Positions 934 through 52,633 of a DNA stretch of 64,000 nt are shown here, piece by piece. The stretch spans positions 6,905-70,904 of the forward strand of contig JAWCSA010000001.1 in assembly GCA_038868975.1 (NCBI GenBank). Direction: 5' to 3'. The translations under genes and the position numbers were made by a program. This stretch comes from Nitrososphaerales archaeon. GTDB taxonomy: Archaea > Thermoproteota > Nitrososphaeria > Nitrososphaerales > UBA213. Position 1 is the first letter of the stretch. Every line of letters starts with the position of its first letter. The notes under the pieces were generated by a model. The model saw only the letters and a list, made by a program, of their open reading frames with translations. It had not been told where the DNA came from and made no database searches.

Positions 934-1296
934 TGTAGAGTAGCAGAATTAATGTCCGCTTAGCGTATCAGAATTGTTGTCCGCTCTAGGAGTTGATAAC
1001 ACAAATAAGAATCTCGTCATGGTCACGCTTCAGTCAAGATCTCAGGAAGCTTGATCGAAGATAATGTGTACTTAGCTTCTTCTTGAAATTTGAGGGTTTT
1101 TCACAAAATTCGTGCGTAAAATCACCTTTCACCTAGATACATATGACGATGCCACTACTGGAGGAAACAGCAGATCCATGGGTGGAAGACTCCAAGCATC
1201 TGCAATGGCAAGAAATAGTACAACAAGAGTTCCAACTGACGACTCACGGACATTATCTCTGCTAACAAAAGCGGACATCATTTGTGATACTCTACA
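934..1296 (+). mobile_element. MITE copy 1 (non-autonomous element with terminal inverted repeats)
   Basis: Imperfect TIRs TGTAGAGTAGCAGAATTAATGTCCGC ... GCGGACATCATTTGTGATACTCTACA (21/25 matched). The ATGTCCG(C) motif occurs twice near each end. Flanking direct duplication ATTAAC at 928-933 and 1297-1302. A second copy lies at 37922-38287. No credible transposase ORF inside. Confidence 0.85.
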
Positions 1297-21126: not shown

Positions 21127-22581
21127 TCAAGAAACAGAGATCTGCATTCTCTTTGTAAGAGGCAATATTCCTGGTTCATCTATGCTCTTCCATACAAAAA
21201 TTTCAACTTCGTAATCACCTTTACCCTCAGGGGTCCAAGATATTCCCGCATTGAAGGACTTCTTTGCATACAAGTTTCCCTTGATCCATGTTAGCATTGC
21301 AGTAAATTCGTTTTCATCCTTCACTTGCACTATGTAAGTGAACGCTTGACTTTCATTCCAATTGTTAGTAATTGTTGTCTGGATCATTACTGGCTGCTGG
21401 GTATGAACTTCTTTTATAGCCTTGCCTAGCAGATCAACAAGTTTGATTTCACTGATTGAATATGGATCAACCATAGGAATCCCCACCTCTGGTACCTCTG
21501 GTTTTGTTCCCGTTTTTGGTTCCTCCTTTCCTATACTGATATGCGCATCACTTGTTCCCATTCCCGCTGAAATTGACTTGTTAAAATAATCGAATCTGAA
21601 CTGCACATTTCTTTCCTTGGCGAACATATCAGCCCGACTTGAAGATTTGTCAAGATTTTCAAATGCGCCAGAATTGGGAAAAATTTCAATCAGAGCAGTT
21701 GCTGGCACACCATTGATTGTGTTGGAGAATCGTATGCCATTCTTTCCCTGTAATGATAGCATTTGTTTAATATCAAATCCCATGCTTTGCATAGCGCTGG
21801 TTATTTCTGCCGGTGGGAGTGACGTTGAAGGTTGATAGAAAACTGCGGTGCCACCATCGTCAAATGCGAATATCACCCGATCATCTTCAACTGGATTTAT
21901 ATTCCACATGTAGTCTGACAGTCCGAAGATGATTTCTGCATTGATAGGATAGGAATCTCTATCCAATGATAATGCAATCTCATTTGCTGAGGGTCTGACG
22001 TAGTTCAATGTTACAGACTGACCACTATATCGTACCGAAACCTGGTCGTTTTCGCTGAAACTGAAAAGTCTTATGTAAGGCCACTCAACGCAGGTGTTCT
22101 GGTCGTTAACGAGAGAAGGACAATCACCATTCAAATCTAGATTCGGATTGATAAAGTCATTCATGGGATCGTTCCTGAATGCGGTGGGCAAGGTTGGAAA
22201 TAACACATTCTTACCGCTTGGACCTATGATCCAAAAGTTTCCATTGATATTGCCAGGAAAACCCGTTACACCTGCAAGTGTTGTAAAAGTGCTACCATCT
22301 GCAAAGAACCCATACCATCTGCCGTCAGCCAAATGCACCATGGGTAAATTCACTCCGTTAACTATAACCGAACCAGGATTGGTATCAGGATTTCTTATAC
22401 TCGGGCCATCGATCACAACCTGCACTATCTGTGGTCCAAAAAATTTTCCGCCAGTATCCTTAGCTGAAACTGATAGCACTATCTGTTGAGCATCAGCTTT
22501 GTTTATTAAAACACTCGTAGTGAGTAGTGGTGCTAATAATAACAATATGGATAAAATAATTAATGTATGCTTTTTCTGCAT
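21127..22581 (-). CDS. Secreted protein, short paralog of the giant protein at 52634-57970
   Basis: N-terminal signal/TM (ILSILLLLAPLL). Shares FFGPQIVQVVID, FPTLP, D(Y/F)MWNINPVE(D/E)D and the C-terminal YIVQVKD...E(V/I)FVW(E/K)S blocks with the giant protein. Confidence 0.7.
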   Translation of the reverse strand: MQKKHTLIILSILLLLAPLLTTSVLINKADAQQIVLSVSAKDTGGKFFGPQIVQVVIDGPSIRNPDTNPGSVIVNGVNLPMVHLADGRWYGFFADGSTFTTLAGVTGFPGNINGNFWIIGPSGKNVLFPTLPTAFRNDPMNDFINPNLDLNGDCPSLVNDQNTCVEWPYIRLFSFSENDQVSVRYSGQSVTLNYVRPSANEIALSLDRDSYPINAEIIFGLSDYMWNINPVEDDRVIFAFDDGGTAVFYQPSTSLPPAEITSAMQSMGFDIKQMLSLQGKNGIRFSNTINGVPATALIEIFPNSGAFENLDKSSSRADMFAKERNVQFRFDYFNKSISAGMGTSDAHISIGKEEPKTGTKPEVPEVGIPMVDPYSISEIKLVDLLGKAIKEVHTQQPVMIQTTITNNWNESQAFTYIVQVKDENEFTAMLTWIKGNLYAKKSFNAGISWTPEGKGDYEVEIFVWKSIDEPGILPLTKRMQISVS

Positions 22582-35264: not shown

Positions 35265-35321
35265 TATAGTAATGTTGCCTCGAAAGAAGATAAAGAAGAT
35301 TTGTATGTGTGCATCTGCTAC
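35209..35321. repeat. Imperfect direct repeat, copy A (5' end + upstream region of gene 34740-35264)
   Basis: Core tcagactcttctgacattatagtaatg matches 37779-37803 in 25 of 27 positions (2-nt gap). Flanking gaatttatttgaaa/gaatttgtttaaag and gaagatttgt...tgcat.tgctac blocks are also shared. Confidence 0.65.
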
Positions 35322-35499
35322 ATACTTAACAAGTCACGAACTAGTTTGCAGTACACTAGACTAATGTTATTTGCAAAGACGTAAATGCTTAGCTTGTTGA
35401 AGTTCAGGCACGAATTATCGGGCTTTTTGACACTAGAAATGTGTCTCTTCAGTATTTGCTTGCGTGATTATACCTGAAAATTCTACAACGGTGCTCTGA

Positions 35500-36170
35500 A
35501 ACCCTTTTCCTCTTTACGTATGGTTTGTGTATTTAGATCCTTCCTGAGAATCGAAACGAAAAGATCGCCCTTTCAATAGTATGTTGTGAAGAATCATAAA
35601 CATTGGACGCACTGTCCCCATTATTTCGATCTCTTCAATAGATATGAGCAATTCATGGAGAAGCTGCGTTATTATGAGAGCTACAACCAAACACCATCAG
35701 CAAACTCCCTACTATAGAAGAACCTGAAGGAAGGGTGACAAGAAAAAGAATGATGGTAATTGCGAATCAAATAAACTAGGGAGGAAGAATGGCCATAGCG
35801 GACTATCTCACTCATTCAAACCAATTCAGACTATTGAGCATAAGCTTGATACGTGTAATAGATGTGGCTTATCAGACATCACATCCACCAATAATGATTA
35901 CAGACCAATCGTTGATATTCCAGAGCCTTAACCATAGAGTAACGCTTCATAAGATAAGTATCTATAATTGCAATGATTGTGAGAGGATATTGCGGGAAGC
36001 GGTTATCCATCGCAATGTGAGGGGGATTGTTGAGGAATAGCAAGGGTATGAGCAAGGTTAGGAGTACAAGAGAGACATCATCAAAAGAGGGCAGAACTTC
36101 TATGACTACGTTAGAGTACATGAATGCGAATGGAAGAAATCCATACATACAAGTGTTTACATAGTGACTT
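35500..36170 (+). pseudogene. IS66-family-like transposase remnant (N-terminal region only, with frameshifts and stops)
   Basis: Reading across three frames gives LPENRNEKIAL..., ...NQTPSANS..., KGDKKKNDGNCESNKLGRKNGHSGLSHSFKPIQTIEHKLDTCNRCG...RPIVDIPEP (stop at 35929) then VTLHKISIYNCNDCE. This fits the GxxGHxG / CxxCG...D(I/L)P...YxCxxC layout of IS66-type transposase N-termini. No DDE domain follows. The boundaries are approximate. Confidence 0.5.
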
Positions 36171-36217
36171 AGGTATGCCATTTACGTAGTAGGTTTGTTA
36201 AGCAGAAAGGATGTATC

Positions 36218-37411
36218 ATGGCACCAGATGATTTTGACTGTTACTCGGTTCTTGGAGTAACTCATAATGCAACTGAGGACGAAATAAAACATGCCTATAG
36301 AAAATTGGTACTCAAATATCATCCTGATCGCAACAAGTCCCCTGAAGCAGATACAATTTTCAGAACAATTCAGATGTGTTATGATAGGCTGATAAAGGCA
36401 GATAGTAGGCGTGCATATAATTCCAAAATAGCTGCGCTCACTAAGATCATGGAAGAAAAAATAAAAGTACTCCTAGAAGGTACGGACACTGAAGGGTACT
36501 CATGGGATGATCGTGCAACAATAAGCATTGTTGGCACCGATGAAAGCATAATATTTGAAAACACAATGAGCATACCAACAGTTTGGTTACATGCACATGA
36601 TACACATAGAGGCCTGCAGATACATACAAAGGAAATATTCGATAGGTTCTTCAGAGCGGTCTATGCCAATATGGACGAAAATGATAACCTTGACGATCTG
36701 CGTATATATGGCAAGCCAGAACTGCGAGCGCATTTTGATGCAGCATGGTGGAACAGGGGACAAACAAACGTATCACTATATTGCCACAGCTCTATGACCT
36801 TAACAATAATAGATGGAATCCCCTATCTGTATCTATATGGTGCGAATTTTCATAACAGGCATGCACAAATCACCGTTCCATTTTACAACGCATTGAAAGC
36901 CACTGTATCCAATATGATCTATTTGTCGTTACGAGGGAAAGTCGAAAAACCAGACGAGGAGGTACAAGCTACGACCTTATTCAGTCCCGTCAAAGAAGAA
37001 AGGAATATACAATTACCGCCGAAAGAGGTCTGTTTAATGTTCGTTAATTTGTGCAGAAATAAATCTGTTCAATCAGCCATCGATATGCTTTGTGTCACAT
37101 ATGGCGTCCCTGTCATGAAAACAGTATTTCAGGACAGAGCTCCTATCAATGATAAAGTGTGTCAAAAAGCACTAGCAGTTTACTACTCGAATGAGCTAAC
37201 TGCATACTTCAAACCATCTGGATTTAGTATGCGAACAATACTCCATGAATTTTATCACCATCTCGTGAACTGCTATGGTATAGCACAAATGCTTTCATAC
37301 GAAGTGCTTCCAGATCCAACTACGGGATATTATACACGTAACGATGAAGAAGAGTCAGCAGCAGATAGCTTCGCAAACGTTTTCTTGGAGAGGGCAATTA
37401 GATCGTTATAA
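36218..37411 (+). CDS. J-domain protein fused to a C-terminal HExxH (ImmA/IrrE-like?) metallopeptidase motif
   Basis: N-terminal DnaJ domain with HPD (YSVLGV...[15 protein letters not shown]). A ~250-aa region follows without recognisable motifs. The C-terminus is LHEFYHHL ... [17 protein letters not shown]. Confidence 0.75.
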
Positions 37412-37745
37412 CATTGTCCAATTAATGCCCATAGGAGTCTCAAATCTAATGAGATAGTTCATAAAGTGTCATGCGATCATACTGCCATTCTTATTCCTAC
37501 ACGTTTTTCATAATAGCTGCAAAACAATTACCTCATAGTGAATGTCAATTTGTTCTTCCGACTCAAAAAAGAATGAAACAACAACCAATTATACATAATC
37601 GACTACGTTCCATATCATATAGGATCGGGATAAGCTTCTCATATAATAGGCCGAGGAGGGTTACGGAGTTTTTTTCGTTAACTTAGAGTATCAACTACCA
37701 TTGAACGGTGACCTGCAATACGTCTAAGAACTATCAACTAATTCA

Positions 37746-37834
37746 AGCATATCTGATGAGTTGAATTTGTTTAAAGAGTCAGACTCCTGACATTATAGTA
37801 ATGGTGGGATGGAAGATTTGTTTGCATATGCTAC
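37746..37834. repeat. Imperfect direct repeat, copy B (decayed copy of the 5' end/promoter of gene 34740-35264)
   Basis: See copy A. On the minus strand this copy reads ATG TCA GGA GTC TGA, only a 4-codon ORF, so it is a non-functional fragment. Confidence 0.65.
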
Positions 37835-37921
37835 CATCTATGCATAGATGAAGAATGATAAAAATTATGGTTCATGTTGGGTAAAAATTTGCAATTCATG
37901 TTAATGTGTTTTTTAAGTACA

Positions 37922-38287
37922 TGTAGAGTAGCAGAATTAATGTCAGCTTAGCGTATCAGAATTGTTGTCCGCTCTAGGAGTTGATAACACAAATAAGAAT
38001 CTCGTCATGGTCACGCTTCAGTCAAGATCTCAGGAAGCTTGATCGAAGATAATGTGTACTTAGGTTCTTCTTGAAATTTGAGGGTTTTTCACAAAATACG
38101 TGCGTAAAATCACCTTTCACCTAGATACATATGACGATGCCACTACTGGAGGAAACAGCAGATCCATGGGTGGAAGACTCCAAGCATCTGCAATGGCAAG
38201 AAATAGTACAACAAGAGTTCCAACTGACGACTCAAAACGGACATTATCTCTGCTAACAAAAGCGGACATCATTTGTGATACTCTACA
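37922..38287 (+). mobile_element. MITE copy 2
   Basis: Same orientation as copy 1. By-eye alignment shows 3 substitutions plus one 3-nt indel. Flanked by the direct duplication AGTACA (37916-37921 and 38288-38293). Confidence 0.85.
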
Positions 38288-38359: not shown

Positions 38360-39745
38360 TTACGGCGGGAATATCTCAAACCCCATGAAGGGTATATTTT
38401 GACCGTATAGTATGTTGTCTTGCATCAATCTTCCAAACATAACGAAATAACCAGCGTATACCGCGCTATTGCCTATTTTCTGACTATCATTATTTCCAGC
38501 AGTTTTGGCAGCAAAAATAACTGTAACCGTTTGAGTGGCGTCCTTCGGTATTGTAATGGGATTTGAGCCGCTTTGATGGAAGGCGTCATATGTGTATGCA
38601 GAAGGATTAGCGTTTGTATTGCATGTTGTTTGAGCAGCTGATGCTAAGAAAAATTGAACCTTATTAGCCGTACCATCAACAGCGTCTAGGAAGAATACTG
38701 ATCTTTTATCTAACCGGATATCATTATCGGGGTCATGATTAGTGATGTTGATTCTAAAAGCTGTCCAACCGGTAGACTGTGTGGGTATTCGCCATGCTTT
38801 AGTCCATGGGCAACTAGTACCGCTTTGTTTCCATTCTAATGACTCGTATTCTATCGTTATAGTACCAGTTAATGAAGCGAAGTTTGTTTTTGATATAGTA
38901 ACCTGTGTAATTGAGACGTCTGATGTAACTAAATTATCTCCGACTCCAGCAGTGAACGTCACTATAGCTCCTGCCGATGTTGAAGACCCGTCCTGCGCAA
39001 TGTTGTATACCCACGTAAATGTTGCGGTGGACCCTTTAGGCAAGGTTCCTACTGATGCAGGGCTAGGGCCACTAACTAACGCTGGATTCGGACAACGGAC
39101 AGGGCCTGAAATATCATTGCAATTTGAAAAGCCCGAAACTTCCAATATCGGAACTATCTCATGCACCGTTTGCGCATTTGGCTCTGAGTTGATTACCGAA
39201 AGTATGATCGTCACATCTTCACCCACGAGTATGGTTGGTGGTACTACCGATAAGGCAACCTGTAAATTGTTAGTTTGAGAAGCAGAAATTGTTCTGAAAC
39301 TAACAATACTTCCCCTCTCAGAAACTGCCTTGACAGTGTAACTTTGCGTCAGAGTCGCTGGTAATGATAGACCCCCAACGGTTCCCTGTCCGACCCCAGT
39401 GACAGTTTCACCTGGATTTAGAATGATGGGATCGGTAACATCATACCTAATCTGTGTGTTTGCAGTTTCATCAGTAACCCAAATTCTGTCTAATTTGACG
39501 GGCAGACCACTGGTATTGACAAACGTGATATCAAACTTGTTATTAACAATCTTTACCTCTCTTATCTCAAGATTTTCCTTTATTCTCTCCACCTCGCTTA
39601 CATTTTTTTCTGTCAAAACCTGTGCAAAATTATTCTGGGAGCTTAAAGCGAAGGTCATCACATTTACCCCTATTATTATTATCATAATCATGAAAATTGC
39701 TGCAACAAGGGTGCTTATACCCTTCTTTTCTTTGCTTCTATGCAT
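38360..39745 (-). CDS. Large pilin-like protein with class III (type IV prepilin) signal peptide
   Basis: MHRSKEKKG/ISTLVAAIFMIMIIIIGV N-terminus, then a ~430-aa Thr/Ser/Val-rich beta region. The start at 39745 forms a TAATG overlap with the upstream gene; the ORF-track start at 39760 is less likely. Confidence 0.65.
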   Translation of the reverse strand: MHRSKEKKGISTLVAAIFMIMIIIIGVNVMTFALSSQNNFAQVLTEKNVSEVERIKENLEIREVKIVNNKFDITFVNTSGLPVKLDRIWVTDETANTQIRYDVTDPIILNPGETVTGVGQGTVGGLSLPATLTQSYTVKAVSERGSIVSFRTISASQTNNLQVALSVVPPTILVGEDVTIILSVINSEPNAQTVHEIVPILEVSGFSNCNDISGPVRCPNPALVSGPSPASVGTLPKGSTATFTWVYNIAQDGSSTSAGAIVTFTAGVGDNLVTSDVSITQVTISKTNFASLTGTITIEYESLEWKQSGTSCPWTKAWRIPTQSTGWTAFRINITNHDPDNDIRLDKRSVFFLDAVDGTANKVQFFLASAAQTTCNTNANPSAYTYDAFHQSGSNPITIPKDATQTVTVIFAAKTAGNNDSQKIGNSAVYAGYFVMFGRLMQDNILYGQNIPFMGFEIFPP

Positions 39746-40314
39746 TACTGTGCCCTCCATAGAATTCTTTCCATCGAACCACGCTCAGTCATGATAGAGA
39801 TATCCAGCGTTTGTATATCTGGATCGTCCCATTCGTAATTAAGATCAACACGCAAGATCTGTTTGATACCTATTACCCCATTGCTATCTTCAGGCAATGA
39901 ATAATGTTGCTCACCAGGCGGGCCTTCACCATCAAATGGTGGACTAGCGGTTACTTCGCTAATACTTACCCCATTGCTATCAAGTCCAATTATTCTAACG
40001 CTCTTGACATCGATAGCTACATCACCAATATTGTTTAATGTTATGTTTACGTAATTTGCAGGACTTCTACTTAGCCAAACATCCTCTATTATGTACCTCT
40101 CCTTCAGAATGTTACTATTCCTTTCATAATCATTGCCTATAGTCTGTCGTTGCCCGTTAAGAGTAGTGTTGGCCCAAATGACCATAAACGAACCGAGAAT
40201 CGATACCGCAGCTATTAGTATCGCAGTTCCTACTACAGTGGTAAAGCCGGATCTCCTCTTTCTCGATGTTATTTTTCTAGTGCGTGAGCTAGCCCTTGCT
40301 GAATCTATACTCAT
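39745..40314 (-). CDS. Pilin-like protein with class III signal peptide
   Basis: ...SRKRRSG/FTTVVGTAILIAAVSILGSFMVIW, followed by a ~140-aa beta-rich domain. Confidence 0.65.
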   Translation of the reverse strand: MSIDSARASSRTRKITSRKRRSGFTTVVGTAILIAAVSILGSFMVIWANTTLNGQRQTIGNDYERNSNILKERYIIEDVWLSRSPANYVNITLNNIGDVAIDVKSVRIIGLDSNGVSISEVTASPPFDGEGPPGEQHYSLPEDSNGVIGIKQILRVDLNYEWDDPDIQTLDISIMTERGSMERILWRAQ

Positions 40315-40404
40315 CCATACAAATTCTATTGATATGGGTATTATGCATTAGTATGTTAGATTAAGAACTTACTAAATGCATAATGCGATTTAATGACTTT
40401 CTGT

Positions 40405-40941
40405 TCATTTGCTCTTTTTTATAGGGATCTCCTCATCATCAACAATGTTCTCTTTCCCCTGTACCTGTTCAGTAGAAGAGATAAGTTCATCTGAAATTTC
40501 ATTAGCGGCTTCATCGCCTCCATCAATCTGTCCCCTTTCCTGACCAGCAGAAGCTTGACCTATAGAAAGTAACTCAGGTGATGGAGATGGCGCATCTATC
40601 ATCTTCGATAGCACAAATATCTGGGCATAAACCTGCTGGTATATGTCATACAATACTATAGGCACCCTTGTTGACGGATGCGCTGTCATGACCTTCTTGA
40701 TATGCTCTGCCCGTCCTTGTATGTCAGCTCTACCCTGCACATGATACTTCACCACTTTTGGCTCTGTTATAATCGTGAATGAGAATCCCAATGAAATACT
40801 GTTGAAACCATGTTCCAGTTCCTCAAGGTTAGCACTTATGTTGAACTTGACAGGCTTGAAGCAGTCAGCTTTTGCATCAAGCTTGGATCCTAAAATACTA
40901 AGAACCTTTACCTGAATTCTAGTTTGTGCTATGGCTTCCAA
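40405..40941 (-). CDS. Hypothetical cytoplasmic protein with acidic disordered tail, first gene of the minus-strand pilin operon
   Basis: 178 aa: a ~125-aa globular part, then GQASAGQERGQIDGGDEAANEISDELISSTEQVQGKENIVDDEEIP. No signal peptide. Confidence 0.5.
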   Translation of the reverse strand: MEAIAQTRIQVKVLSILGSKLDAKADCFKPVKFNISANLEELEHGFNSISLGFSFTIITEPKVVKYHVQGRADIQGRAEHIKKVMTAHPSTRVPIVLYDIYQQVYAQIFVLSKMIDAPSPSPELLSIGQASAGQERGQIDGGDEAANEISDELISSTEQVQGKENIVDDEEIPIKKSK

Positions 40942-41038
40942 TTACACCTTACGTTCATTGCAAAATCAATATATGATGTAGTATGTAGTTGAATGTTACA
41001 CATCCATGTAATTATGGCATGAGTATAGCTACACAATC

Positions 41039-42061
41039 GTGGAGTTTAAGAAGAGAAGCGTTCTCAATGAATCGATGGGTAAGGACGTTCAGCAGGTTAA
41101 GATCCTTGATGGCAATGCTAGCATTAGGGTAACTACTGTTACAAAAAAGAAACACGAATCCGAGCTTGTGCAGAAATATGCAGTACAAAGATACAATCTA
41201 TGTCAGGGCTACTCATTCCCTGACGACCTTTACAATCTCATACCCAAAGACACTCCCATGTATGCTGACAACGGAGAACATTACGTGGAACGCATAATGA
41301 GAGCACTCTACCATTTCAAGCAGTGCGCCCTCATAGGACCGAGTGGCACTGGAAAGACCCACATCTGCTACCTTGTTGCCGAGCTCGCGGGTTTACCAAT
41401 GTGGGAGATAAACTGCAACCTACAGACATCGGTATACGATTTATTTGGCAGATACATAGGTCTGGGCAAGGAGAACTGGATAGACGGTCAAATAGTGTCA
41501 TGGGCAAGGTATGGGGGCATCCTGTACCTAGATGAGGCTAACATGATGAAGCAGGATATTGCAACGAGGTTGAACCCCTTGCTCGACACAAGGGGACATA
41601 TGGTACTAACAGAAAAGGACAACGAGATAATACCGCGTCATCCATATGCATATGTAATAATTAGTTTGAATCCTTACTCCAGTGAATTTGCTGGCACAAA
41701 GCCATTGAACGCTGCCTTTAGAAGGAGGATGAGCGTCTGGATCAATTTCGATTACCTCAGCGTTGGTAAGACTATCAGCCCGCAGGAGGTACAGCTCATT
41801 TGCGAGAAGACTCTCATAGGTGAAGAGATTGCTAAGAGGATCGTGCAAGTTGGTGCCGAATTACGAAGGCAGTACAAGTCCGGTGACATACCCTACGGAC
41901 CGTCTGTTGGAGACCTGGTTAACTGGGCTCAGCTCGTTGCCGATGGCGAGTCCCCGCAAACGGCAGCAGAGGAGACGGTTGTAACCATGACAAGCGATAA
42001 CATGGAAGTTCAGGATATGGTTCGTAGGGTGGTAAAGATGTTTTTGGGCGATCACAGGTAA
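41039..42061 (+). CDS. AAA_5-type ATPase (MoxR / CbbQ-NorQ-GvpN family)
   Basis: Walker A GPSGTGKTH, Walker B ILYLDEANM, sensor region ISLNP and the arginine-containing AAFRRRM. Confidence 0.8.
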   Translation: MEFKKRSVLNESMGKDVQQVKILDGNASIRVTTVTKKKHESELVQKYAVQRYNLCQGYSFPDDLYNLIPKDTPMYADNGEHYVERIMRALYHFKQCALIGPSGTGKTHICYLVAELAGLPMWEINCNLQTSVYDLFGRYIGLGKENWIDGQIVSWARYGGILYLDEANMMKQDIATRLNPLLDTRGHMVLTEKDNEIIPRHPYAYVIISLNPYSSEFAGTKPLNAAFRRRMSVWINFDYLSVGKTISPQEVQLICEKTLIGEEIAKRIVQVGAELRRQYKSGDIPYGPSVGDLVNWAQLVADGESPQTAAEETVVTMTSDNMEVQDMVRRVVKMFLGDHR

Positions 42062-42083
42062 CTTTGCATAAGCAGGTGAACAG

Positions 42084-43802
42084 TTGAAGTTCTATAACCA
42101 AGTGCTAGCACGGACATTTGAGATAACCCAGTCTAGTGCTAGTGATGTAAGGCTACTGATCTCTGAGAAGTTCAGGTTTGCCTCGCTTGAGAAGGATAGC
42201 AATGGAATGATTTTAAGGATACCAAAGCCTGTGAAAACAAAGAAGGGCTTTGTTCTGCATGGCATAATCTTCCCTAACAATCAGCTGGGGCGTGCACTAT
42301 CGATACGAATGATCATGTCATCAGTTGAGCACTTGAGCGTGCACGCAATGATAAGCAATTTTTCAATATATGACAAATGGGTAAAAGGCAAAGACCCAAA
42401 ACTTGCAGCATTTGCAATCGATCTGATAGAAGATCTGTGTGTAAAATATTATGTGCGGTCCAGCCTAAGGGGATTGCTGGAGGACTTTGCGCTTGCAAAT
42501 GCCATATCATATGTGGCAATAACAAAAGCGGAAAAAATCGGCTCAAAACAAATTCTAGTGCAGTCAGCGTTGCTATCATACATAATAGCTAGCAATTACA
42601 GGTACTTTCTGCCATCAGATGTTAAAAATGATGTATTCTATATTTTATCTGAACTTTATAGGTTCGAGAAATTTCTTTCACAAAGTACGTTAGAGAGATT
42701 TTGGTGTAGTGATGATGTTGTAACCATGAAGATGGAACTTGCAGGATCCATATACAGGCGTTTAGAGAAATACGGGTCGCCAAAGAAGGTGCTTAGCCTT
42801 CCCTATACGGACAGTCATGGTATTGAAAGCTTCAATGGAGAACTGGTTCTTAGCATTGCTGAAAGCATGGAGGCCCTGCCGCACACATCCCGTATGCTGG
42901 GGCTTGAGACAACCAATAGAACCGTCGATGAACTGCTAAGCTCTCCGACGATCCATGAGGCATCAAATACTCTGTATGATATTGTGATGGAGCAGCACTG
43001 GAAGGACAGACTGGTGCAAAGATATATGAATATAGCGAAGAACACAGAATTCGATGATTTTGTCTTCCCTATAGAAGATTATGCTATGTACTACAGATCC
43101 TACAGAAAGTATGTGGGTGCAATTAGGAAGATGGTTGATCAGATACGAATGCTGAAGAATGACCTGGATATGAATCCTAACCAGGAGATCGGACAGGTTG
43201 ACATTAATGAAGTGGTTCAGGCAATGGCAGCTAAAAAGATGAATGCAAATGTGTTCACAAAGGACGACTTTCTCAGCAAGGATGAAGCATGGTGCATACT
43301 CTTAGACATGAGCGGCAGTTTGAGCCCGTTTGCATCTAATACGAGGGAGATCGCCCTATGTCTGGCAGAGATGGCCAAGGAGCTCATGCGTGGTAGTGGG
43401 AGCTGGGGCCTTTATGCATTTAGCAACAGATTTACCATCGTAAAGGATATGGAGGAAGAGTATAGTACAAATGTAAAGGCAAGGATCGGAGGTCTTGGCA
43501 AGGGCGGTTTATCATATATGCCAGATGCATTGCAGCTGGGAGCACAGATAGTTGCAAAGAGCGCGAAGGAGCACAACTACATATTTATCATATCCGACGG
43601 GCTGCCTTCTGGCTATCCTGGCATAGAGGAAAAACTTGAGAAAACGATCAAATCCATACTTAGCACCGGTACTACATTAATTCCTGTAGGCGTTGGGTCA
43701 AATGCCTTCAAGAGATACATGCGCAACGCATCCTTGGTTGCTGACACTCCATTGGATCTAGCGAGTAAGTTCGTAAAGATATACTTTGAATTCTCTGTTT
43801 AA
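42084..43802 (+). CDS. VWA-domain protein (CbbO/NorD/CobT-like partner of the AAA_5 ATPase)
   Basis: C-terminal von Willebrand A domain with MIDAS ILLDMSGSL and a later IFIISDGLPSG. The ~380-aa helical N-terminal region has no signal peptide. Confidence 0.75.
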   Translation: MKFYNQVLARTFEITQSSASDVRLLISEKFRFASLEKDSNGMILRIPKPVKTKKGFVLHGIIFPNNQLGRALSIRMIMSSVEHLSVHAMISNFSIYDKWVKGKDPKLAAFAIDLIEDLCVKYYVRSSLRGLLEDFALANAISYVAITKAEKIGSKQILVQSALLSYIIASNYRYFLPSDVKNDVFYILSELYRFEKFLSQSTLERFWCSDDVVTMKMELAGSIYRRLEKYGSPKKVLSLPYTDSHGIESFNGELVLSIAESMEALPHTSRMLGLETTNRTVDELLSSPTIHEASNTLYDIVMEQHWKDRLVQRYMNIAKNTEFDDFVFPIEDYAMYYRSYRKYVGAIRKMVDQIRMLKNDLDMNPNQEIGQVDINEVVQAMAAKKMNANVFTKDDFLSKDEAWCILLDMSGSLSPFASNTREIALCLAEMAKELMRGSGSWGLYAFSNRFTIVKDMEEEYSTNVKARIGGLGKGGLSYMPDALQLGAQIVAKSAKEHNYIFIISDGLPSGYPGIEEKLEKTIKSILSTGTTLIPVGVGSNAFKRYMRNASLVADTPLDLASKFVKIYFEFSV

Positions 43803-44146
43803 CGCAGTAGCATTAAGGAAGTATCAATAATTATTGGAAGAATATGTGTTTGTTCATTCCATTTGTGTTATGTTTGAATTACTGGGTGTGTCTAGAAATC
43901 CTAGTTTCCTATGCCATTCCTGATCCGCAGTAAATTGACTATACAGCTGATATTATGGCGCAAGGCAACTATTCTCACTCTTGGAAAAGTATGGATAATC
44001 CGTTGGCTAAGAGATATTGCATGTGTTTCAGGGCTCTACAACCATGAGAACATATGGTGAATGAGATTGTGAGGTTATCGTGTATGTATTGGCAAAGCAC
44101 ACGCTACCGTTGATAATTTGCGCCTAGTTGTTATTGCTAGGGAAAA

Positions 44147-44791
44147 ATGACGACCATAATAAACAGAAGGAAGAAAGGTATCAGCACAGTACTAACAACA
44201 CTGATCATCGTCGTAGCCTCAGTGGTTTTGGGAACAGCAGTAACATTGTTCGGAACCTCACTATTCCAGACAGGTGCTTCACAGCAATCAATTGACGTCA
44301 CGGGTCAGAACCTGTGGATTAATACTGATGTTAACGGAGATGGCACTGCAGACGATCCACTCGTTGTAGGTTCGGTAGCAGTAAGAAACACTGGAGACAA
44401 ACTGATTGCCATAGATAAAATATCAGTAAGAGGTGCACTTGTACCATTTACACAATGGTACGCTTCAAATCCAGATCCTGCAGTCACTACTCCTCAACAT
44501 GTGCAGTCGCAATTTCTATATGATGACGAACTAGAAGCCTACGATCCCGTTGCCCGAACACCAGCCTCAATTAGTATACCGACTGCTGCGGGTAATCTCA
44601 ATTTAGGCATTCAAAACGGTCCAGTAAGTCTTGATCCAGGTAAATCTACGATCATATACTTCGTTGTTCCTGGAGACTTCACAGGTGTTGTAGACGTCAT
44701 AACATCAGCTGACGTAGGTGCGGCAGCAACGCTAAAGGTAAATGCTGGACAACTCACATCAGTGCAATCAGTAACTGTTGCAAAAGTATAA
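44147..44791 (+). CDS. Type IV pilin-like protein (class III signal peptide), candidate major pilin
   Basis: MTTIINRRKKG/ISTVLTTLIIVVASVVLG, then a ~180-aa beta-rich domain. First gene of the pilin-ATPase-platform operon. Confidence 0.7.
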   Translation: MTTIINRRKKGISTVLTTLIIVVASVVLGTAVTLFGTSLFQTGASQQSIDVTGQNLWINTDVNGDGTADDPLVVGSVAVRNTGDKLIAIDKISVRGALVPFTQWYASNPDPAVTTPQHVQSQFLYDDELEAYDPVARTPASISIPTAAGNLNLGIQNGPVSLDPGKSTIIYFVVPGDFTGVVDVITSADVGAAATLKVNAGQLTSVQSVTVAKV

Positions 44792-44810
44792 ACAAATGAT
44801 GGTGGTGTTA

Positions 44811-44845
44811 ATGGCGCGCCATCACATCCCTAATCTTTTTGTTTT
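44811..44845 (+). terminator. Possible attenuator/terminator between the pilin and ATPase genes
   Basis: Perfect 12-bp GC-rich palindrome ATGGCGCGCCAT (44811-44822) followed by the T-tracts TTTTTGTTTT (44836-44845), 20 nt after the pilin stop. Confidence 0.3.
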
Positions 44846-44854
44846 AATATTAAG

Positions 44855-46477
44855 GTGATAAACTTGCTATCGTTCAAATCAAAACCAAAAAAGGGAGACA
44901 AAGACAAGGATAAGGATAAGGACAAAGAAGAGAGTCAAAAGAGTAATGATCTAGTATCCGTGCTAAAGATAACACACTTTAGCATTCCAGAGGGTTTTGA
45001 GGAGATAACAAAATACCCCTTAAACCCGCCGTTCAGTTACGCAGTGATAGCTCAAAATCCAAGCACTGCCGAATCACTTTACCTCGTCGATGAGCTACCA
45101 ATGAGTGCAGACGAGAAGGTGCTTTACAATATACTAAGAGATCTCCTGGAGCGCAGGCTCACAAAGCCAGACGAGGGGTCTGAAGAAAGCAGTTTCAATA
45201 AACATCTGGAGCAGTTGCTAATGGATACAAAGGAGCAGTTTGCAACTTTCCCAAACACCAGCATGGAGAAGGTAAAATACTATTTGACACGCGATATAAT
45301 GGGCTTTGGCATCATAGATCCATTGATGCACGATCCCATGGTAGAGGACATCAGCTGCGGAGGCATAAAGGTTCCAATATATGTGTGGCAGAGGAACTTT
45401 GAGAGCATAAGAACCAATATACAGTTCGGCAATGAAGACGAATTGAACGACTTTGTCATGAAGATGGTCCATAGGTCTGGTAAGCATGTGAGCGCAGCGT
45501 TCCCTGTAAGCGATGTTGCCTTACCAGGAAACCACAGAATGGCCATATTGTATCAAAAGGAAGTAACCCCAAAAGGCACGAGTTTTACGATAAGAAAGTT
45601 CAAGGAAGAACCCTATACAATCGTTGATCTCATAAACTTTGATACCTTGGATATCAACATTGCCGCATACATATGGATGATCATGGAGCATAAGATGTCA
45701 TCGATAGTGATAGGATCAACAGCAAGTGGAAAGACCACACTTTTGAACGCAATAACCACACTTGTAAACCCAACATACAAGATATTCACCGTAGAGGATG
45801 TGGCAGAAATAAACATACCCCACGAGAACTGGTTCTCGCTAGTATCAAGAACCGGTTTCGGTTTGGAAAACCAGGGAGAGATAGGCCTCTTCGAATTGAT
45901 CAAGGCAGGGCTAAGGCACAGACCGGACTACATGGTAGTTGGAGAGATCAGGGGTGAAGAAGCATACGTGCTATTCCAGGCATTAGCAACCGGTCACAGC
46001 GGTCTAGGCACAATGCACGCAGATAGTGTAGATTCTGCAATGAAGAGGCTGATGCAAAAGCCCATGAACATACCGCCTGCTTACTTGCCATTGATGAACT
46101 GTGCCATAACGATAAAGCGTGTTATCCCAAGAGCAATAGTAACGCCAGGAGGAGTGGTGTCAGGTACAAGAAGGGTCATACAGGTATCAGAGATAATAAG
46201 TGAGACCAAGCTAAACCATGTGTTCACATGGGATTCCAAATCCGACGCATTCAAGAGCGATCTTACGAATAGCATGCTTCTTCATAAGATAGGCGAGGAC
46301 AGTGGGCTCTCAATCGATGAAGTTATGGAAGAATTCAGGAAGAGGGTTCTAATACTGAAATGGATGATTGAGGAAGGCATACGCGACTACAGAAGTGTCA
46401 GCTCAATAGTAAGAACGTATTACCAGAACCCCTCGCAGATCATGCAGAGGGTAACGGCGCTGGGAGAGACGGTATGA
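44855..46477 (+). CDS. Type II/IV secretion-family ATPase (FlaI/TadA/PilB-like)
   Basis: Walker A GSTASGKTT, Walker B/Asp box DYMVVGEIRGEEA and His box GHSGLGTMHA. N-terminal Lys/Asp-rich tract KKGDKDKDKDKDKEE. Confidence 0.85.
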   Translation: MINLLSFKSKPKKGDKDKDKDKDKEESQKSNDLVSVLKITHFSIPEGFEEITKYPLNPPFSYAVIAQNPSTAESLYLVDELPMSADEKVLYNILRDLLERRLTKPDEGSEESSFNKHLEQLLMDTKEQFATFPNTSMEKVKYYLTRDIMGFGIIDPLMHDPMVEDISCGGIKVPIYVWQRNFESIRTNIQFGNEDELNDFVMKMVHRSGKHVSAAFPVSDVALPGNHRMAILYQKEVTPKGTSFTIRKFKEEPYTIVDLINFDTLDINIAAYIWMIMEHKMSSIVIGSTASGKTTLLNAITTLVNPTYKIFTVEDVAEINIPHENWFSLVSRTGFGLENQGEIGLFELIKAGLRHRPDYMVVGEIRGEEAYVLFQALATGHSGLGTMHADSVDSAMKRLMQKPMNIPPAYLPLMNCAITIKRVIPRAIVTPGGVVSGTRRVIQVSEIISETKLNHVFTWDSKSDAFKSDLTNSMLLHKIGEDSGLSIDEVMEEFRKRVLILKWMIEEGIRDYRSVSSIVRTYYQNPSQIMQRVTALGETV

Positions 46478-47994
46478 TCACGCTCAAGGATAGGCAAAGG
46501 CTAGAGGCAGAAAGGAAAAAGGCATCAAAACAACCAAAGGAGTATGCGAAGAAGATAGACAAGGAGTTACCATATTTTATCACACTCATTACATTGATGG
46601 CATCCAGCGGCATAAGTCCCTATCACAGTTTGAAGAAGATCATGTCGTATGATATCCTGCCTGTCATGAGGAAAGAGGCACAAAGCATGGTAAAGCAGGT
46701 AGAGATTCTTGGCGTGGATCCATTGTCTGTTATGAACAAGAAGGCTGATGAAACTTCCTCCACGCTATACCAGGACTTTCTGGCAGGTTACGTTTCTACT
46801 GTGCAAACTGGAGGCAGCATAATAAACTTCCTGAAGAGCAAGATGTGGTCCATTTTTGATCTAAATGCAGCTATGTCAAGGCAGCTTGTAATGAAGCTAG
46901 CAGGACTTGTTGACGCCTATATGATCATTCAGGTGGTTATACTAACAATGTACATAATGTTCGTATCACTTTCAGCCACGCCATCCATATCATTATCATT
47001 TGTCCCAGATGCACAGTCTCTCTCTCGCGGTATCGTAATGTTCCTCATAATACCGCCGGTCATGGCTGCGATGCTCATGTTCATATCGCACCAGATGACC
47101 CACTCTACTTACATGGGGACAGAGAAGATAATCCGGACAGGCCTTATAACAACGGTTGTAAGCGTTATACCAGTTATAGTGTTGTCTGCTGGTGGGTTCA
47201 CAACTAACCTGGAGTTTTTTGGACTGCCATACATGGTTGCTGCAGCGCTATTGGCAGCATCGATCAAGCCCATACTGGATTACCAGAAGATTCACAGAAT
47301 GAATTCAGCAGCAGAGAGATCAACGCCAAGCATACTTAGGGATATAGCAGAGGCAAGGAAGACGGGTCTTTCTCCTGAAAGGTGCATAATACATGGATTC
47401 AAGAGGAAGGGCTATGGCGTATTCAGCACAGTGCTGGATCGCGCGGTGAGCCAGCTGGGCTGGGGCGTACCGTTAAGGAAGATACTTGATAGCATAAGGA
47501 GGGAAGTTAGCAGCTGGTTCGTTTTGATAAATATGAAGATACTTATCGAAGTAATAGAGTCCGGCGGGGGATATTCAGACGCCCTTGACACGCTTGCAGA
47601 GGCGAGCGAAAAGGCACACAACGTGGAAAAGGAAAAGCAGGCGATGCTCAAGCCATACATACTCGTTGGCTTTATGATAATGGGCATAACTGCGTTTACG
47701 ACCCTTATAGTTATCGACGCATTTAGCGGAATTGCAGAAACTGTTGCACCTGGTATATCTTCATCAGGGTCTTTAATTACAAAGGATATGCGGGATCAGT
47801 TTGCATCTAGCATCATATTCCAGTCCTTTCTAGTAGGCCTCTTCTTGGGTAAGATCACCAATGGAACATTTGCTGCTGGCTTCAGGTATTCGGCCATGCT
47901 TGTAATGACAGTGCTCGTTGCGGTTATGTTCGTGGACTATGCACCTATAGACCTGAACATGCTTTTTACCCCACCTGAGCAAGTAAATAAATAA
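46474..47994 (+). CDS. FlaJ/TadC/PilC-like polytopic membrane platform protein
   Basis: ATGA start/stop overlap with the ATPase gene. Two repeated T2SSF-like halves with multiple TM helices. Confidence 0.75.
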   Translation: MITLKDRQRLEAERKKASKQPKEYAKKIDKELPYFITLITLMASSGISPYHSLKKIMSYDILPVMRKEAQSMVKQVEILGVDPLSVMNKKADETSSTLYQDFLAGYVSTVQTGGSIINFLKSKMWSIFDLNAAMSRQLVMKLAGLVDAYMIIQVVILTMYIMFVSLSATPSISLSFVPDAQSLSRGIVMFLIIPPVMAAMLMFISHQMTHSTYMGTEKIIRTGLITTVVSVIPVIVLSAGGFTTNLEFFGLPYMVAAALLAASIKPILDYQKIHRMNSAAERSTPSILRDIAEARKTGLSPERCIIHGFKRKGYGVFSTVLDRAVSQLGWGVPLRKILDSIRREVSSWFVLINMKILIEVIESGGGYSDALDTLAEASEKAHNVEKEKQAMLKPYILVGFMIMGITAFTTLIVIDAFSGIAETVAPGISSSGSLITKDMRDQFASSIIFQSFLVGLFLGKITNGTFAAGFRYSAMLVMTVLVAVMFVDYAPIDLNMLFTPPEQVNK

Positions 47995-52457: not shown

Positions 52458-52633
52458 AACGTCTCAACGAACAGGTTACAAGTTATTTAATCTTTAGTTG
52501 CCTGCAGTCTGTAATTCATGCTACACCTCGCCTTTATTTCATTTTCTTGATCTAATTATGCAATTTTTTGTCGAATGCTCGCTATATACTGTTGTCTAAA
52601 AGAATTTTTGAGAATGAACAGGAGGAGAACTGC

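What the first reader, a model, noticed from the sequence alone, without database searches (positions are those of the whole stretch)
36218..37411. J-domain fused to a HExxH metallopeptidase-like C-terminus, inside a mobile-element junction
Seen: the N-terminal ~65 aa form a canonical DnaJ J-domain with an intact HPD motif (LKYHPDRNK). The last ~70 aa contain LHEFYHHL (HExxH plus an extra His) and, about 40 residues later, [17 protein letters not shown]. The ~250 aa between them have no motif I recognise. The gene sits between an IS66-like transposase remnant and a MITE, inside a segment bracketed by a duplicated gene fragment. Known: J-domains recruit Hsp70 to specific clients. The HExxH ... 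E..A..FA..fL layout is reminiscent of ImmA/IrrE (M78-like) peptidases, which in mobile elements cleave repressors. Inference: this may be an Hsp70-coupled protease or anti-repressor carried as mobile cargo. I do not know this domain combination as a described family.
Basis: partly seen in the sequence, partly recalled or inferred. Interest (0 to 1): 0.55.

Follow-up and report, generated by a model that had tools for sequence, protein, structure and literature searches.

The report
J-domain fused to novel zincin-like module
A soil ammonia-oxidising archaeon encodes a chromosomal protein that joins an Hsp70-recruiting J-domain to a small, previously undescribed HExxHH metal-protease-like module, whose stand-alone relatives sit beside integrase genes in archaeal viruses and mobile elements; this suggests a chaperone-coupled protease, but it is not the mobile-element cargo it was flagged as.

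Summary
The ORF (36218-37411, +, 397 aa) is real. Residues 7-68 are a canonical J-domain (PF00226, E=1e-20, HPD intact).

HEFYHH (343-348) and E379-x2-A-D-x-F-A are essentially invariant in about 45 full-length homologues. They are also invariant in about 60 distant stand-alone relatives (23-50% identity).

AlphaFold2 places HExxH in a helix that follows a 3-stranded sheet and precedes a Glu-bearing helix. That is a minimal gluzincin layout.

No Pfam, NCBIfam, PHROGs, PADLOC or PDB family matches residues 70-397. Similarity to ImmA/IrrE (M78) is only suggestive: hhalign P=0.005 against 9e-9 for a positive control, and Foldseek prob 0.84-1.0 with weak E-values.

The middle 170 aa form an orphan tandem beta-sheet+helix domain.

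The mobile-junction story mostly fails:
- There is no IS66 remnant.
- The "duplicated gene fragment" is a 365-bp MITE (TIRs plus 6-bp TSDs) lying 510 bp downstream.
- The 37 kb between the MITE copies is ordinary chromosome.
- Homologues lie among housekeeping genes of a subset of Nitrososphaeraceae MAGs.

The stand-alone module does occur in Thermoproteota viruses and elements, directly after tyrosine integrase or Cas1 genes.

Best reading: a class-C J-protein coupling DnaK to a novel zincin-like peptidase. Function is untested.

The parts
36218..37411 (+). Complete gene, 397 aa, three-domain protein (J-domain / orphan beta-rich domain / HExxHH zincin-like module)
   Evidence: ORF list. An identical protein is in public MAGs, annotated 'J domain-containing protein [Nitrososphaerales archaeon]'. 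There are about 45 full-length homologues at 53-76% identity.
36236..36421 (+). J-domain (aa 7-68), with HPD at aa 35-37 (nt 36320-36328)
   Evidence: PF00226 E=1.1e-20. J-domains in PDB match at E down to 1e-13. Foldseek superposes it on J-domains at 0.7-1.3 A rmsd. HPD is conserved in every homologue that keeps its N-terminus.
36428..36937 (+). Orphan middle domain (aa ~71-240): two repeats of a 5-7-stranded antiparallel sheet followed by a long helix
   Evidence: AF2 pLDDT is mostly 85-95. A profile search finds only this same family. No PDB sequence hit. Only weak Foldseek matches to FABP, Polo-box and IFT-like folds.
36938..37003 (+). Low-confidence, poorly conserved linker (aa ~241-262)
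   Evidence: pLDDT <50 in both models. The region is variable and gapped in alignment A1.
37004..37408 (+). HExxHH zincin-like module (aa ~263-397): two helices, a 3-stranded sheet, the HExxH helix, a hairpin insert and a C-terminal Glu helix
   Evidence: AF2 secondary structure and pLDDT 75-95. The profile finds 62 relatives in 1.84 billion representative proteins, mostly 100-170-aa stand-alone proteins. No Pfam, PDB, PHROGs or PADLOC family matches.
37244..37261 (+). HEFYHH motif (H343 E344 H347 H348), the putative metal-binding and catalytic residues
   Evidence: Invariant in alignments A3 (24 sequences) and A4 (48 sequences). It lies in helix 338-352 of the model.
37346..37396 (+). [17 protein letters not shown] (aa 377-393). 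E379-x2-A382-D-x-F385-A386-x2-F-L is the putative third metal ligand helix
   Evidence: E379, A382 and A386 are >=90% conserved in A4. The motif lies at the start of helix 376-396. hhalign aligns it with E-x-E-A-N-x-F-A-x-x-L-L of ImmA and CapP.
37922..38287 (.).
   Evidence: 98% identical to copy A at 934-1296. TIR pattern gives 4 matches against 0 expected. TSDs are AGTACA and ATTAAC. Contigs from other samples break at this point.
35265..36217 (.). 953-bp upstream spacer with no detectable coding potential (the claimed IS66 remnant is not found)
   Evidence: Six-frame translation is full of stops. No Pfam hit at E<=1. No Rfam hit.

Best explanation
This is a lineage-specific class-C (type III) J-domain protein found in a subset of soil Nitrososphaeraceae.

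Shown:
- A canonical J-domain with an intact HPD loop.
- An orphan, well-folded tandem beta-sheet/helix domain.
- A flexible linker.
- A C-terminal ~135-aa module with the topology of a minimal gluzincin metallopeptidase. It has an invariant HExxHH in a helix, preceded by a small beta-sheet and followed by a helix carrying a conserved Glu.

This module belongs to an undescribed family spread through Thermoproteota (Nitrososphaerales, Bathyarchaeia, Acidilobaceae, Geothermarchaeota). It also occurs in their viruses and integrated elements, where it is often encoded directly after the element's integrase or Cas1.

Inferred mechanism:
- The module binds zinc through H343, H347 and E379 (or H348), and hydrolyses peptide bonds using E344.
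- The J-domain docks ATP-bound DnaK and triggers its ATPase.
- DnaK then clamps and unfolds a client held by the middle domain, so that an extended segment can enter the small peptidase.

This would be an Hsp70-coupled protease, analogous in logic to AAA+ zincin proteases. The gene is chromosomal cargo-free DNA, not part of a mobile element.
For: - J-domain: PF00226 E=1e-20; PDB matches; rmsd about 1 A to solved J-domains; HPD conserved.
- Module conservation: H343/E344/H347/H348 are invariant and E379/A382/A386 >=90% conserved over 48 sequences down to 22% identity.
- Fold: AF2 pLDDT 81.8 with the order helix-helix-beta3-HExxH helix-Glu helix.
- The only non-trivial fold neighbours of the module are zincins: the PrpR ImmA/IrrE-like domain at prob 0.85-0.93, IrrE at 0.84, deuterolysin at 0.85, and 120-aa phage 'IrrE N-terminal-like' proteins at prob 1.0 with TM 0.54-0.57.
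- hhalign aligns strand, HExxH and E..A[ND].FA in register with ImmA (P=0.005, 68 columns) and with CapP (P=0.001). An unrelated HExxH peptidase (M32) aligns over only 13 columns.
- Full-length conservation at 53-76% identity across at least 7 species-level MAGs implies purifying selection on all three domains.
- The lineage carries DnaK/DnaJ/GrpE (PMC3564930), and canonical DnaJ homologues from Thaumarchaeota or Nitrososphaerota appear.
- The fusion occurs only in the DnaK-bearing lineage. DnaK-independent stand-alone modules occur elsewhere.
Against: - There is no biochemical evidence of metal binding or proteolysis.
- There is no statistically significant sequence, profile or fold match to any characterised peptidase (best Foldseek E about 0.01; hhalign prob <=20%).
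- The nearest solved fold neighbour, PrpR, is not known as a protease.
- DnaK could not be checked in this particular genome; it is not in the 64-kb window.
- No conserved neighbouring gene points to a substrate.
- The gene is patchy within Nitrososphaeraceae, and no cultured species appeared in the genome scan, so it is dispensable.
Confidence: 0.45

Rival explanations
1. It is an ImmA/IrrE-type regulatory protease. The module is a very divergent M78-like anti-repressor that cleaves one specific regulator (site-specific, not degradative). The J-domain makes its activity depend on free DnaK, so that proteotoxic stress is transduced into a transcriptional switch. The gene would be a domesticated version of an integrase-linked regulator of archaeal mobile elements.
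For: - The motif layout HExxH...E-x2-A-[ND]-x-F-A-x2-[FL]-L matches ImmA and CapP in register.
- Best viral fold neighbours include 'IrrE N-terminal-like domain' proteins, and PDB neighbours include IrrE and PrpR.
- Stand-alone relatives are encoded directly after tyrosine integrase (L009/L010) or Cas1 (L011/L014), with an integrase nearby in L013.
- This resembles the repressor-immA-int arrangement seen in phage phi105.
Against: - PF06114 does not match any member at E<=10.
- hhalign probabilities are 3-20% against 96% for a true M78 pair.
- No HTH or XRE partner gene is adjacent to the window gene or its homologues.
- The Bathyarchaeia-type stand-alone genes lie among housekeeping genes.
- The extra invariant His (HExxHH) is not an M78 feature, to my knowledge.
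Confidence: 0.2
2. The module is non-catalytic. The HExxHH/Glu site binds a metal or small ligand as a sensor or structural centre, or acts as a protein-interaction surface. The protein would then be simply a specialised co-chaperone adaptor that brings DnaK to a particular client or complex, with no proteolysis.
For: - The closest solved fold neighbour, M. tuberculosis PrpR (6cz6/6cyy), is deposited as a transcriptional regulator, not a protease.
- Most class-C J-proteins are adaptors (established knowledge).
- The extra His and the conserved Cys272 and Cys315 could serve metal sensing.
- No peptidase family is matched.
Against: - The catalytic Glu of HExxH is invariant in every relative, down to 22% identity. 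That is not expected for a purely structural metal site.
- The overall topology, including the beta-sheet edge strand next to the HExxH helix, is that of active zincins.
Confidence: 0.2
3. One reading: the gene is cargo of a mobile element (an IS/MITE junction) and acts for that element, for example as an anti-repressor or anti-defence factor.
For: - A real MITE lies 510 bp downstream.
- Long non-coding spacers flank the gene.
- Distant stand-alone relatives are in viral or MGE contigs.
- The distribution within Nitrososphaeraceae is patchy, and one MAG has two 74%-identical copies.
Against: - There is no transposase, integrase or IS66 signal around the gene.
- The two MITE copies are independent insertions with different TSDs, and they bracket 37 kb of housekeeping genes.
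- Homologues sit next to tRNA synthetase, M32 carboxypeptidase, thermosome, HflX-type GTPase and an MS channel.
- No hit in PHROGs, PADLOC or sequenced phage genomes.
Confidence: 0.05

Closest known systems
Class C (type III) J-domain proteins, e.g. thaumarchaeal DnaJ-Fer (PMC3564930), E. coli DjlA and HscB
   Same: A canonical J-domain with HPD is fused to an unrelated specialised domain. The G/F region, Zn-finger (PF00684) and DnaJ C-terminal domain (PF01556) are all absent. The presumed role is to target DnaK/Hsp70 to a particular task.
   Different: The partner here is a zincin-like HExxHH module plus an orphan beta-rich domain. No such combination was found in Pfam architectures seen or in the searched literature.
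ImmA/IrrE metallopeptidases (Peptidase_M78, PF06114): phi105 ORF2, ICEBs1 ImmA, Deinococcus IrrE, CBASS CapP
   Same: - A small alpha/beta domain.
- HExxH followed about 25-35 residues later by E-x2-A-[ND]-x-F-A-x2-[LF]-L.
- Weak fold similarity and register-consistent hhalign alignments.
- Stand-alone relatives sit next to integrase genes in mobile elements, as phi105 ORF2 does.
   Different: - No significant HMM or profile match.
- An invariant second His (HExxHH).
- Different N-terminal helices, with a conserved PPxxxC motif.
- No HTH repressor partner.
- The window protein is chromosomal and fused to a J-domain.
Unfoldase-coupled zincin proteases (FtsH AAA+/M41; Wss1/SPRTN with Cdc48/p97)
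   Same: The functional logic is the same: a small HExxH peptidase that needs an ATP-driven machine to feed it unfolded substrate. This is inference, from established knowledge of those systems.
   Different: There is no AAA+ module. The proposed motor (DnaK) would be recruited in trans through a J-domain. No sequence relationship exists: no Pfam hit to Peptidase_M41, SprT-like or WLM.
CbpA, 'curved DNA-binding protein' (the name given to several homologues by JGI)
   Same: Only the J-domain (NF007618 partial match, 35.8 bits against a cut-off of 403).
   Different: It lacks the DnaJ C-terminal domains that define CbpA. The annotation is a J-domain carry-over and should be disregarded.

Membership tests
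J-domain proteins (PF00226) | Match to the J-domain HMM above the curated threshold | tested here: met
   73.9 bits against a gathering score of 27.8, E=1.1e-20, aa 7-68, full model length 1-63/63.
J-domain proteins (PF00226) | Intact His-Pro-Asp loop between helices II and III | tested here: met
   H35-P36-D37 in LKYHPDRNK. Conserved in all homologues that retain the N-terminus.
J-domain proteins (PF00226) | Four-helix J fold | tested here: met
   The AF2 model superposes on solved J-domains at 0.7-1.3 A rmsd over 62-65 columns.
J-domain proteins (PF00226) | Stimulates the ATPase of a cognate Hsp70 encoded in the same genome | not testable with these tools
   No dnaK in the 64-kb window. The lineage has DnaK/DnaJ/GrpE according to PMC3564930. 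Activity needs biochemistry.
Canonical DnaJ/Hsp40 (class A/B) and CbpA | G/F region, Cys-rich Zn-finger domain (PF00684) and/or DnaJ C-terminal domain (PF01556) | tested here: not met
   No such Pfam hits. All NCBIfam DnaJ and CbpA models match only aa 7-72 and fall far below their cut-offs.
Peptidase_M78 / ImmA-IrrE (PF06114) | Match to the family HMM | tested here: not met
   No PF06114 hit at E<=10 for 14 members of A2, or at E<=1 for 24 members of A3. The genuine member phi105 ORF2 scores E=2.7e-18.
Peptidase_M78 / ImmA-IrrE (PF06114) | Profile-profile homology to bona fide members | tested here: inconclusive
   - hhalign module against ImmA profile: prob 2.9-6.9%, P=0.015-0.005.
- Against a CapP fragment: prob 20%, P=0.001.
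- Positive control, ImmA against CapP: prob 95.7%, P=9e-9.
- Negative control, M32: prob 0.15%.
- The register is consistent, but the result is not significant.
Peptidase_M78 / ImmA-IrrE (PF06114) | HExxH followed by a Glu in an E-x2-A-N-x-F-A-like helix | tested here: met
   H343-E-F-Y-H347 and E379-S-A-A382-D-S-F385-A386-N-V-F-L (sequence; conservation). The M78 motif is seen in A7 as E96-x-E98-A-N-x-F-A.
Peptidase_M78 / ImmA-IrrE (PF06114) | Fold similarity to IrrE/ImmA structures | tested here: inconclusive
   - Foldseek prob 0.84 for IrrE 3dti (E=0.17).
- Prob 0.85-0.93 for PrpR (E=0.04-0.1).
- Prob 1.0 for 120-aa phage IrrE-like models (E about 0.01, TM 0.54-0.57 on the target).
Peptidase_M78 / ImmA-IrrE (PF06114) | Adjacent cognate HTH (XRE/ImmR-type) repressor gene or fused HTH | tested here: not met
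   No HTH protein flanks the window gene. None is consistently adjacent in homologous loci; isolated HTH_45 genes lie 1.6 to nearly 5 kb away in L001 and L002 only.
Zincin / gluzincin metallopeptidase fold | HExxH in an 'active-site helix' packed against a beta-sheet, with the third ligand Glu on a following helix | tested here: met
   In the AF2 model, strands 301-304, 320-323 and 328-331 precede helix 338-352 (HExxH) and helix 376-396 (E378/E379). Local pLDDT is 75-95. This holds at the level of predicted topology only; ligand distances were not measurable.
Zincin / gluzincin metallopeptidase fold | Zinc binding and peptide-bond hydrolysis | not testable with these tools
   Requires purified protein.
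SprT-like / WLM (Wss1) proteases | Match to PF10263 / PF08325 | tested here: not met
   No hit in any Pfam scan of the protein or of 38 module relatives.
IS66-family transposase remnant (context claim) | Detectable similarity to a transposase domain in any frame | tested here: not met
   Six-frame translations and ORFs of 35265-36217 give no Pfam hit at E<=1.
MITE (context claim) | Short non-coding element, terminal inverted repeats, target-site duplication, multiple copies | tested here: met
   - 363-366 bp, two copies at 98% identity.
- The 28-nt TIR pattern is found 4 times against 0 expected, and IR arms extend to 55 nt.
- 6-bp TSDs differ between copies.
- No Pfam hit for its 81-aa ORF.

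The most novel reading that the evidence does not exclude
The protein is the first example of an Hsp70-powered protease built as a single polypeptide. The J-domain recruits DnaK as the unfoldase for a minimal zincin that cannot handle folded substrates itself. The zincin module was domesticated from an integrase- or Cas1-linked regulator of archaeal viruses and casposon-like elements. That would define both a new peptidase family specific to Thermoproteota and their mobilome, and a new mode of chaperone-protease coupling in archaea.
Probability: 0.25. Interest if true: 0.75.

Novelty: new variant of a known kind. Interest (0 to 1): 0.55.

Why it matters
J-domain proteins determine what Hsp70 works on. 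A J-domain hard-wired to a protease-like domain would be a direct physical link between Hsp70 and proteolysis, and I found no description of this in the libraries or literature available here.

Independently of the fusion, the HExxHH module is an unannotated family. About 60 clusters were detected among 1.84 billion representative proteins. It runs through Bathyarchaeia, Nitrososphaerales and other Thermoproteota, and through their viruses. There it repeatedly sits immediately downstream of the integrase or Cas1 gene, the position ImmA-type anti-repressors occupy in bacterial elements such as phi105. It is therefore a candidate lysogeny or induction switch for archaeal mobile elements, about which very little is known.

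For genome annotation, the 'CbpA' label on several homologues is wrong.

Tried and rejected
- Pfam, NCBIfam, PHROGs and PADLOC scans of the protein, its C-terminal module and up to 24 relatives returned nothing beyond the J-domain.
- PDB sequence and profile searches with the module and with the middle domain gave only chance hits, such as thymidylate kinase and malic enzyme His-tags.
- Foldseek against the PDB with the full model was swamped by J-domains. Re-modelling residues 70-397 with a deeper alignment improved pLDDT to 81.8, but still gave no hit at E<0.01 in PDB or BFVD.
- hhalign against phi105 ImmA, alone and as a 24-sequence profile, and then with a 62-sequence module profile and controls, was suggestive but not significant.
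- tblastn of a stand-alone relative against 50,697 sequenced phage genomes gave no match.
- Rfam on 33-41 kb gave nothing. No tRNA is present in the window, so there is no tRNA-linked island.
- The IS66 remnant is rejected.
- The idea of a 37-kb island bracketed by direct repeats is rejected. The repeats are separate MITE insertions with different TSDs, and the interior is housekeeping.
- Conserved synteny as a functional clue was sought. The only weak recurrence is Peptidase_M32 with DUF892 downstream in two close relatives, and it is absent in the window.
- Literature searches for J-domain plus HExxH or metalloprotease fusions returned 0 papers. The ImmA/IrrE/archaea search returned only term noise.
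Full report
**Observation**

The ORF at 36218-37411 (+) exists and encodes 397 aa. An identical protein is present in public Nitrososphaerales MAGs, annotated only as 'J domain-containing protein'.

- Residues 7-68 match the Pfam J-domain over its full length (PF00226, 73.9 bits against a cut-off of 27.8, E=1.1e-20).
- They also match solved J-domains (best E=1e-13).
- The HPD loop is H35-P36-D37.
- NCBIfam models for DnaJ, CbpA, DjlA and similar proteins match only this segment, far below their cut-offs.
- No Zn-finger or DnaJ C-terminal domain is present. By architecture this is a class-C J-protein.
- LHEFYHHL is at aa 342-349 and [17 protein letters not shown] at aa 377-393.

**Family**

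About 45 full-length homologues at 53-76% identity were found. All come from Nitrososphaera or Nitrososphaeraceae-type MAGs and soil or sediment metagenomes.

A scan of one genome per GTDB species found the full-length gene in only seven MAG species. One of these has two copies that are 74% identical, either paralogues or a mixed bin. No record titled with a cultured Nitrososphaera appeared. The gene is therefore conserved where present but patchy.

All three regions are conserved across the family (mean column identity 57%).

**The C-terminal module**

A profile of aa 258-397 was searched against 1.84 billion representative proteins. It found 62 relatives at E<=1e-3, mostly 100-170-aa stand-alone proteins.

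- All of those looked up are unnamed or 'hypothetical'.
- None matches Pfam, PHROGs, PADLOC or PDB sequences.
- In a 48-sequence alignment reaching 22% identity, P267, Y295, Y322, H343, E344, H347 and H348 are invariant. E379, A382 and A386 are >=90% conserved.
- Three Nitrososphaerales proteins (P0044-46) carry the module behind a CxxC...CxxC N-terminus instead of a J-domain.

**Structure**

AlphaFold2 was run on the full protein (pLDDT 75.6) and on aa 70-397 with a deeper alignment (pLDDT 81.8). Both give the same picture:

- After the J-domain come two repeats of a 5-7-stranded antiparallel sheet plus a long helix (aa ~71-240).
- A disordered linker follows (aa ~241-262).
- Then come two helices, a three-stranded sheet, a helix carrying HExxH (338-352), a low-confidence hairpin insert, and a long C-terminal helix starting at E378/E379.

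That order is the core of a minimal gluzincin. Domain orientation is uncertain (pTM 0.52-0.58), and I could not access coordinates to measure ligand geometry.

Foldseek finds nothing significant. The only coherent neighbours of the module are zincins:

- PrpR's ImmA/IrrE-like domain (prob 0.85-0.93).
- IrrE (prob 0.84).
- Deuterolysin (prob 0.85).
- In BFVD, 120-aa phage proteins including an 'IrrE N-terminal-like domain' protein (prob 1.0, TM 0.54-0.57 on the target, E about 0.01).

The middle domain has only weak matches to FABP, Polo-box and IFT-like folds. Its sequence profile finds only this same family, so it is an orphan domain, plausibly a client- or partner-binding unit.

**Test of the ImmA/IrrE idea**

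I fetched phage phi105. Its ORF2 lies between the immunity repressor and the integrase and is a bona fide Peptidase_M78 (E=2.7e-18). I then built a 24-sequence ImmA profile.

| hhalign comparison | Probability | P-value | Aligned columns |
|---|---|---|---|
| Module profile vs ImmA profile | 2.9-6.9% | 0.015-0.005 | 62-68 |
| Module profile vs CapP fragment | 20% | 0.001 | 54 |
| ImmA vs CapP (positive control) | 95.7% | 9e-9 | 79 |
| Module vs M32 (negative control) | 0.15% | 0.4 | 13 |

The module-ImmA alignment always pairs the preceding strand, HExxH, and E379-x2-A-D-x-F-A with E-x2-A-N-x-F-A. M32 is an unrelated HExxH peptidase.

As a calibration, the ImmA profile finds IrrE itself only at E=0.04. 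The resemblance is therefore real in layout and better than for another zincin, but membership of M78 is not demonstrated.

**Context of the window gene**

The mobile-junction description does not hold.

- The 953-bp upstream spacer has stops in all frames and no Pfam or Rfam signal. There is no IS66 remnant.
- The 'duplicated gene fragment' is a MITE of about 365 bp, at 934-1296 and 37922-38287 (98% identical).
- It has imperfect TIRs (28-nt core pattern, 4 matches against 0 expected; arms extend to 55 nt) and different 6-bp TSDs, ATTAAC and AGTACA.
- It lies 510 bp past the stop codon. Contigs from other samples that carry the identical gene end 200-600 bp after it, as expected for a multi-copy repeat.
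- The 37 kb between the copies encodes Alba, a PRTase, Mrp/NBP35, H+-PPase, cupredoxins, Cdc48, a helicase, MFS, a NosD-like protein and GDH.
- Downstream is a type IV pilus-like locus.
- Homologues lie next to an aminoacyl-tRNA synthetase, M32 carboxypeptidase, thermosome, HflX-type GTPase and an MS channel. Synteny is not conserved beyond close relatives.

**Context of the stand-alone module**

Here mobile elements do appear.

- P0129 overlaps by 4 nt the 3' end of an archaeal tyrosine integrase gene (PF16795) in two samples (L009/L010).
- In two IMG/VR contigs the module starts 10 bp after a Cas1 homologue (PF01867, E=4e-46), with no CRISPR array in the fetched stretch (L011/L014).
- L013 has an integrase 2.5 kb upstream.
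- P0180 lies in a ~91.4-kb contig of small co-oriented ORFs, recovered at nearly identical length from two samples. This is probably a viral genome (L007/L008).
- A 117-150-aa form in Bathyarchaeia, Geothermarchaeota and other Thermoproteota lies among housekeeping genes.

**Mechanism**

Shown: the J-domain, the invariant HExxHH/Glu signature, the zincin-like predicted topology, the chromosomal location, and the lineage restriction.

From the literature: Thaumarchaeota possess DnaK/DnaJ/GrpE and another class-C J-protein, DnaJ-Fer (PMC3564930).

Inferred:
- The module is a Zn peptidase.
- The J-domain loads DnaK onto a client held by the middle domain.
- DnaK then presents an unfolded segment to the small peptidase, or alternatively gates it.

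Rivals:
- An ImmA-like site-specific regulatory protease whose activity reports free DnaK.
- A non-catalytic metal or ligand-binding adaptor.
- Mobile-element cargo, which is largely refuted.

I put 0.45 on the Hsp70-coupled peptidase reading, 0.2 on each of the first two rivals and 0.05 on cargo.

**Novelty and verdict**

J-proteins with specialised partner domains are a known kind, and zincins are a known fold. But this partner module is an undescribed family, the middle domain is an orphan, and I found no description of a J-domain-zincin fusion.

I rate it a new variant of a known kind, interest 0.55. The M78 assignment is unproven and the mobile-cargo framing is wrong for this gene.

Noticed in passing
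window 934-1296 and 37922-37949..38287: A ~365-bp MITE is present twice at 98% identity. It has imperfect TIRs (TGTAGAGTAGCAGAATTAATGTCCGCTT against TGTAGAGTATCACAAATGATGTCCGCTT) and 6-bp TSDs (ATTAAC; AGTACA). It carries no transposase, and assemblies from other samples break at it. The autonomous partner element is unknown.
   Followed up: partly
L011 3951-5312 and L014 3951-5312 (IMG/VR contigs): A stand-alone HExxHH module gene starts 10 bp after a Cas1 homologue (PF01867, E=4e-46). No CRISPR array is in the fetched 6-7 kb, so this may be a casposon-like or virus-borne Cas1 with a linked zincin-like gene.
   Followed up: partly
L009 13-1355, L010 149-1491: The stand-alone module gene overlaps by 4 nt the end of an archaeal tyrosine integrase gene (PF16795), followed by many small unannotated ORFs. 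This is a putative integrated element or small virus, and the arrangement recalls immA-int in phi105.
   Followed up: partly
L007 / L008 (contigs of 91,375 and 91,361 bp from two samples): Two nearly identical ~91.4-kb contigs from different samples carry a module homologue (P0180). They are packed with small co-oriented ORFs, several glycosyltransferases, a RecA/Rad51-like ATPase and sugar-modifying enzymes. This is probably a complete viral or plasmid genome of an uncultured archaeon.
   Followed up: no
L015 895-1719: Immediately downstream of the module gene lies a second small ORF (121 aa) with its own HExxH-like motif (LLHELVHW) and no Pfam hit. This may be a tandem pair of divergent zincin-like genes in a viral contig.
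   Followed up: no
window 35265-36217 and 37412-37921: Unusually long non-coding spacers (953 bp and about 510 bp) flank the gene in a compact archaeal genome. A weak inverted repeat (28 nt, 71%) at 35296-35323 / 36130-36157 brackets most of the upstream spacer. It could be a decayed element or chance.
   Followed up: partly
window 38360-47994: A type IV pilus-like locus. It has two pilin-like genes with class III signal-peptide-like N-termini (38360-39760 and 39745-40314, minus strand), a PilB3-type ATPase (44855-46477) and a T2SSF membrane protein (46474-47994). It is interrupted by a CbbQ/NorQ-type AAA+ (41039-42061) and a VWA protein (42084-43802).
   Followed up: partly
window 52568-57970 and 21127-22581: A very large ORF of 1800 aa, and a 483-aa ORF, both without any Pfam match at E<=1e-5.
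   Followed up: no
L016 6001-7176 and L019 6001-7167 (MAG mag.109f): One MAG carries two full-length J-zincin genes that are 74% identical, on different contigs. They are either true paralogues or a bin mixing two species.
   Followed up: partly
homologues P0003, P0007, P0013, P0021, P0022, P0028, P0033: JGI annotates several family members as 'curved DNA-binding protein CbpA'. This is an over-transfer from the J-domain alone, because the CbpA-defining C-terminal domains are absent.
   Followed up: yes
L001 13116-14651 and L006 11405-12928: In two close relatives a Peptidase_M32 carboxypeptidase gene follows the J-zincin gene on the same strand, directly in L006 and after one intervening ORF in L001, with a DUF892 gene further downstream. 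This is not seen in the window or in more distant relatives.
   Followed up: no
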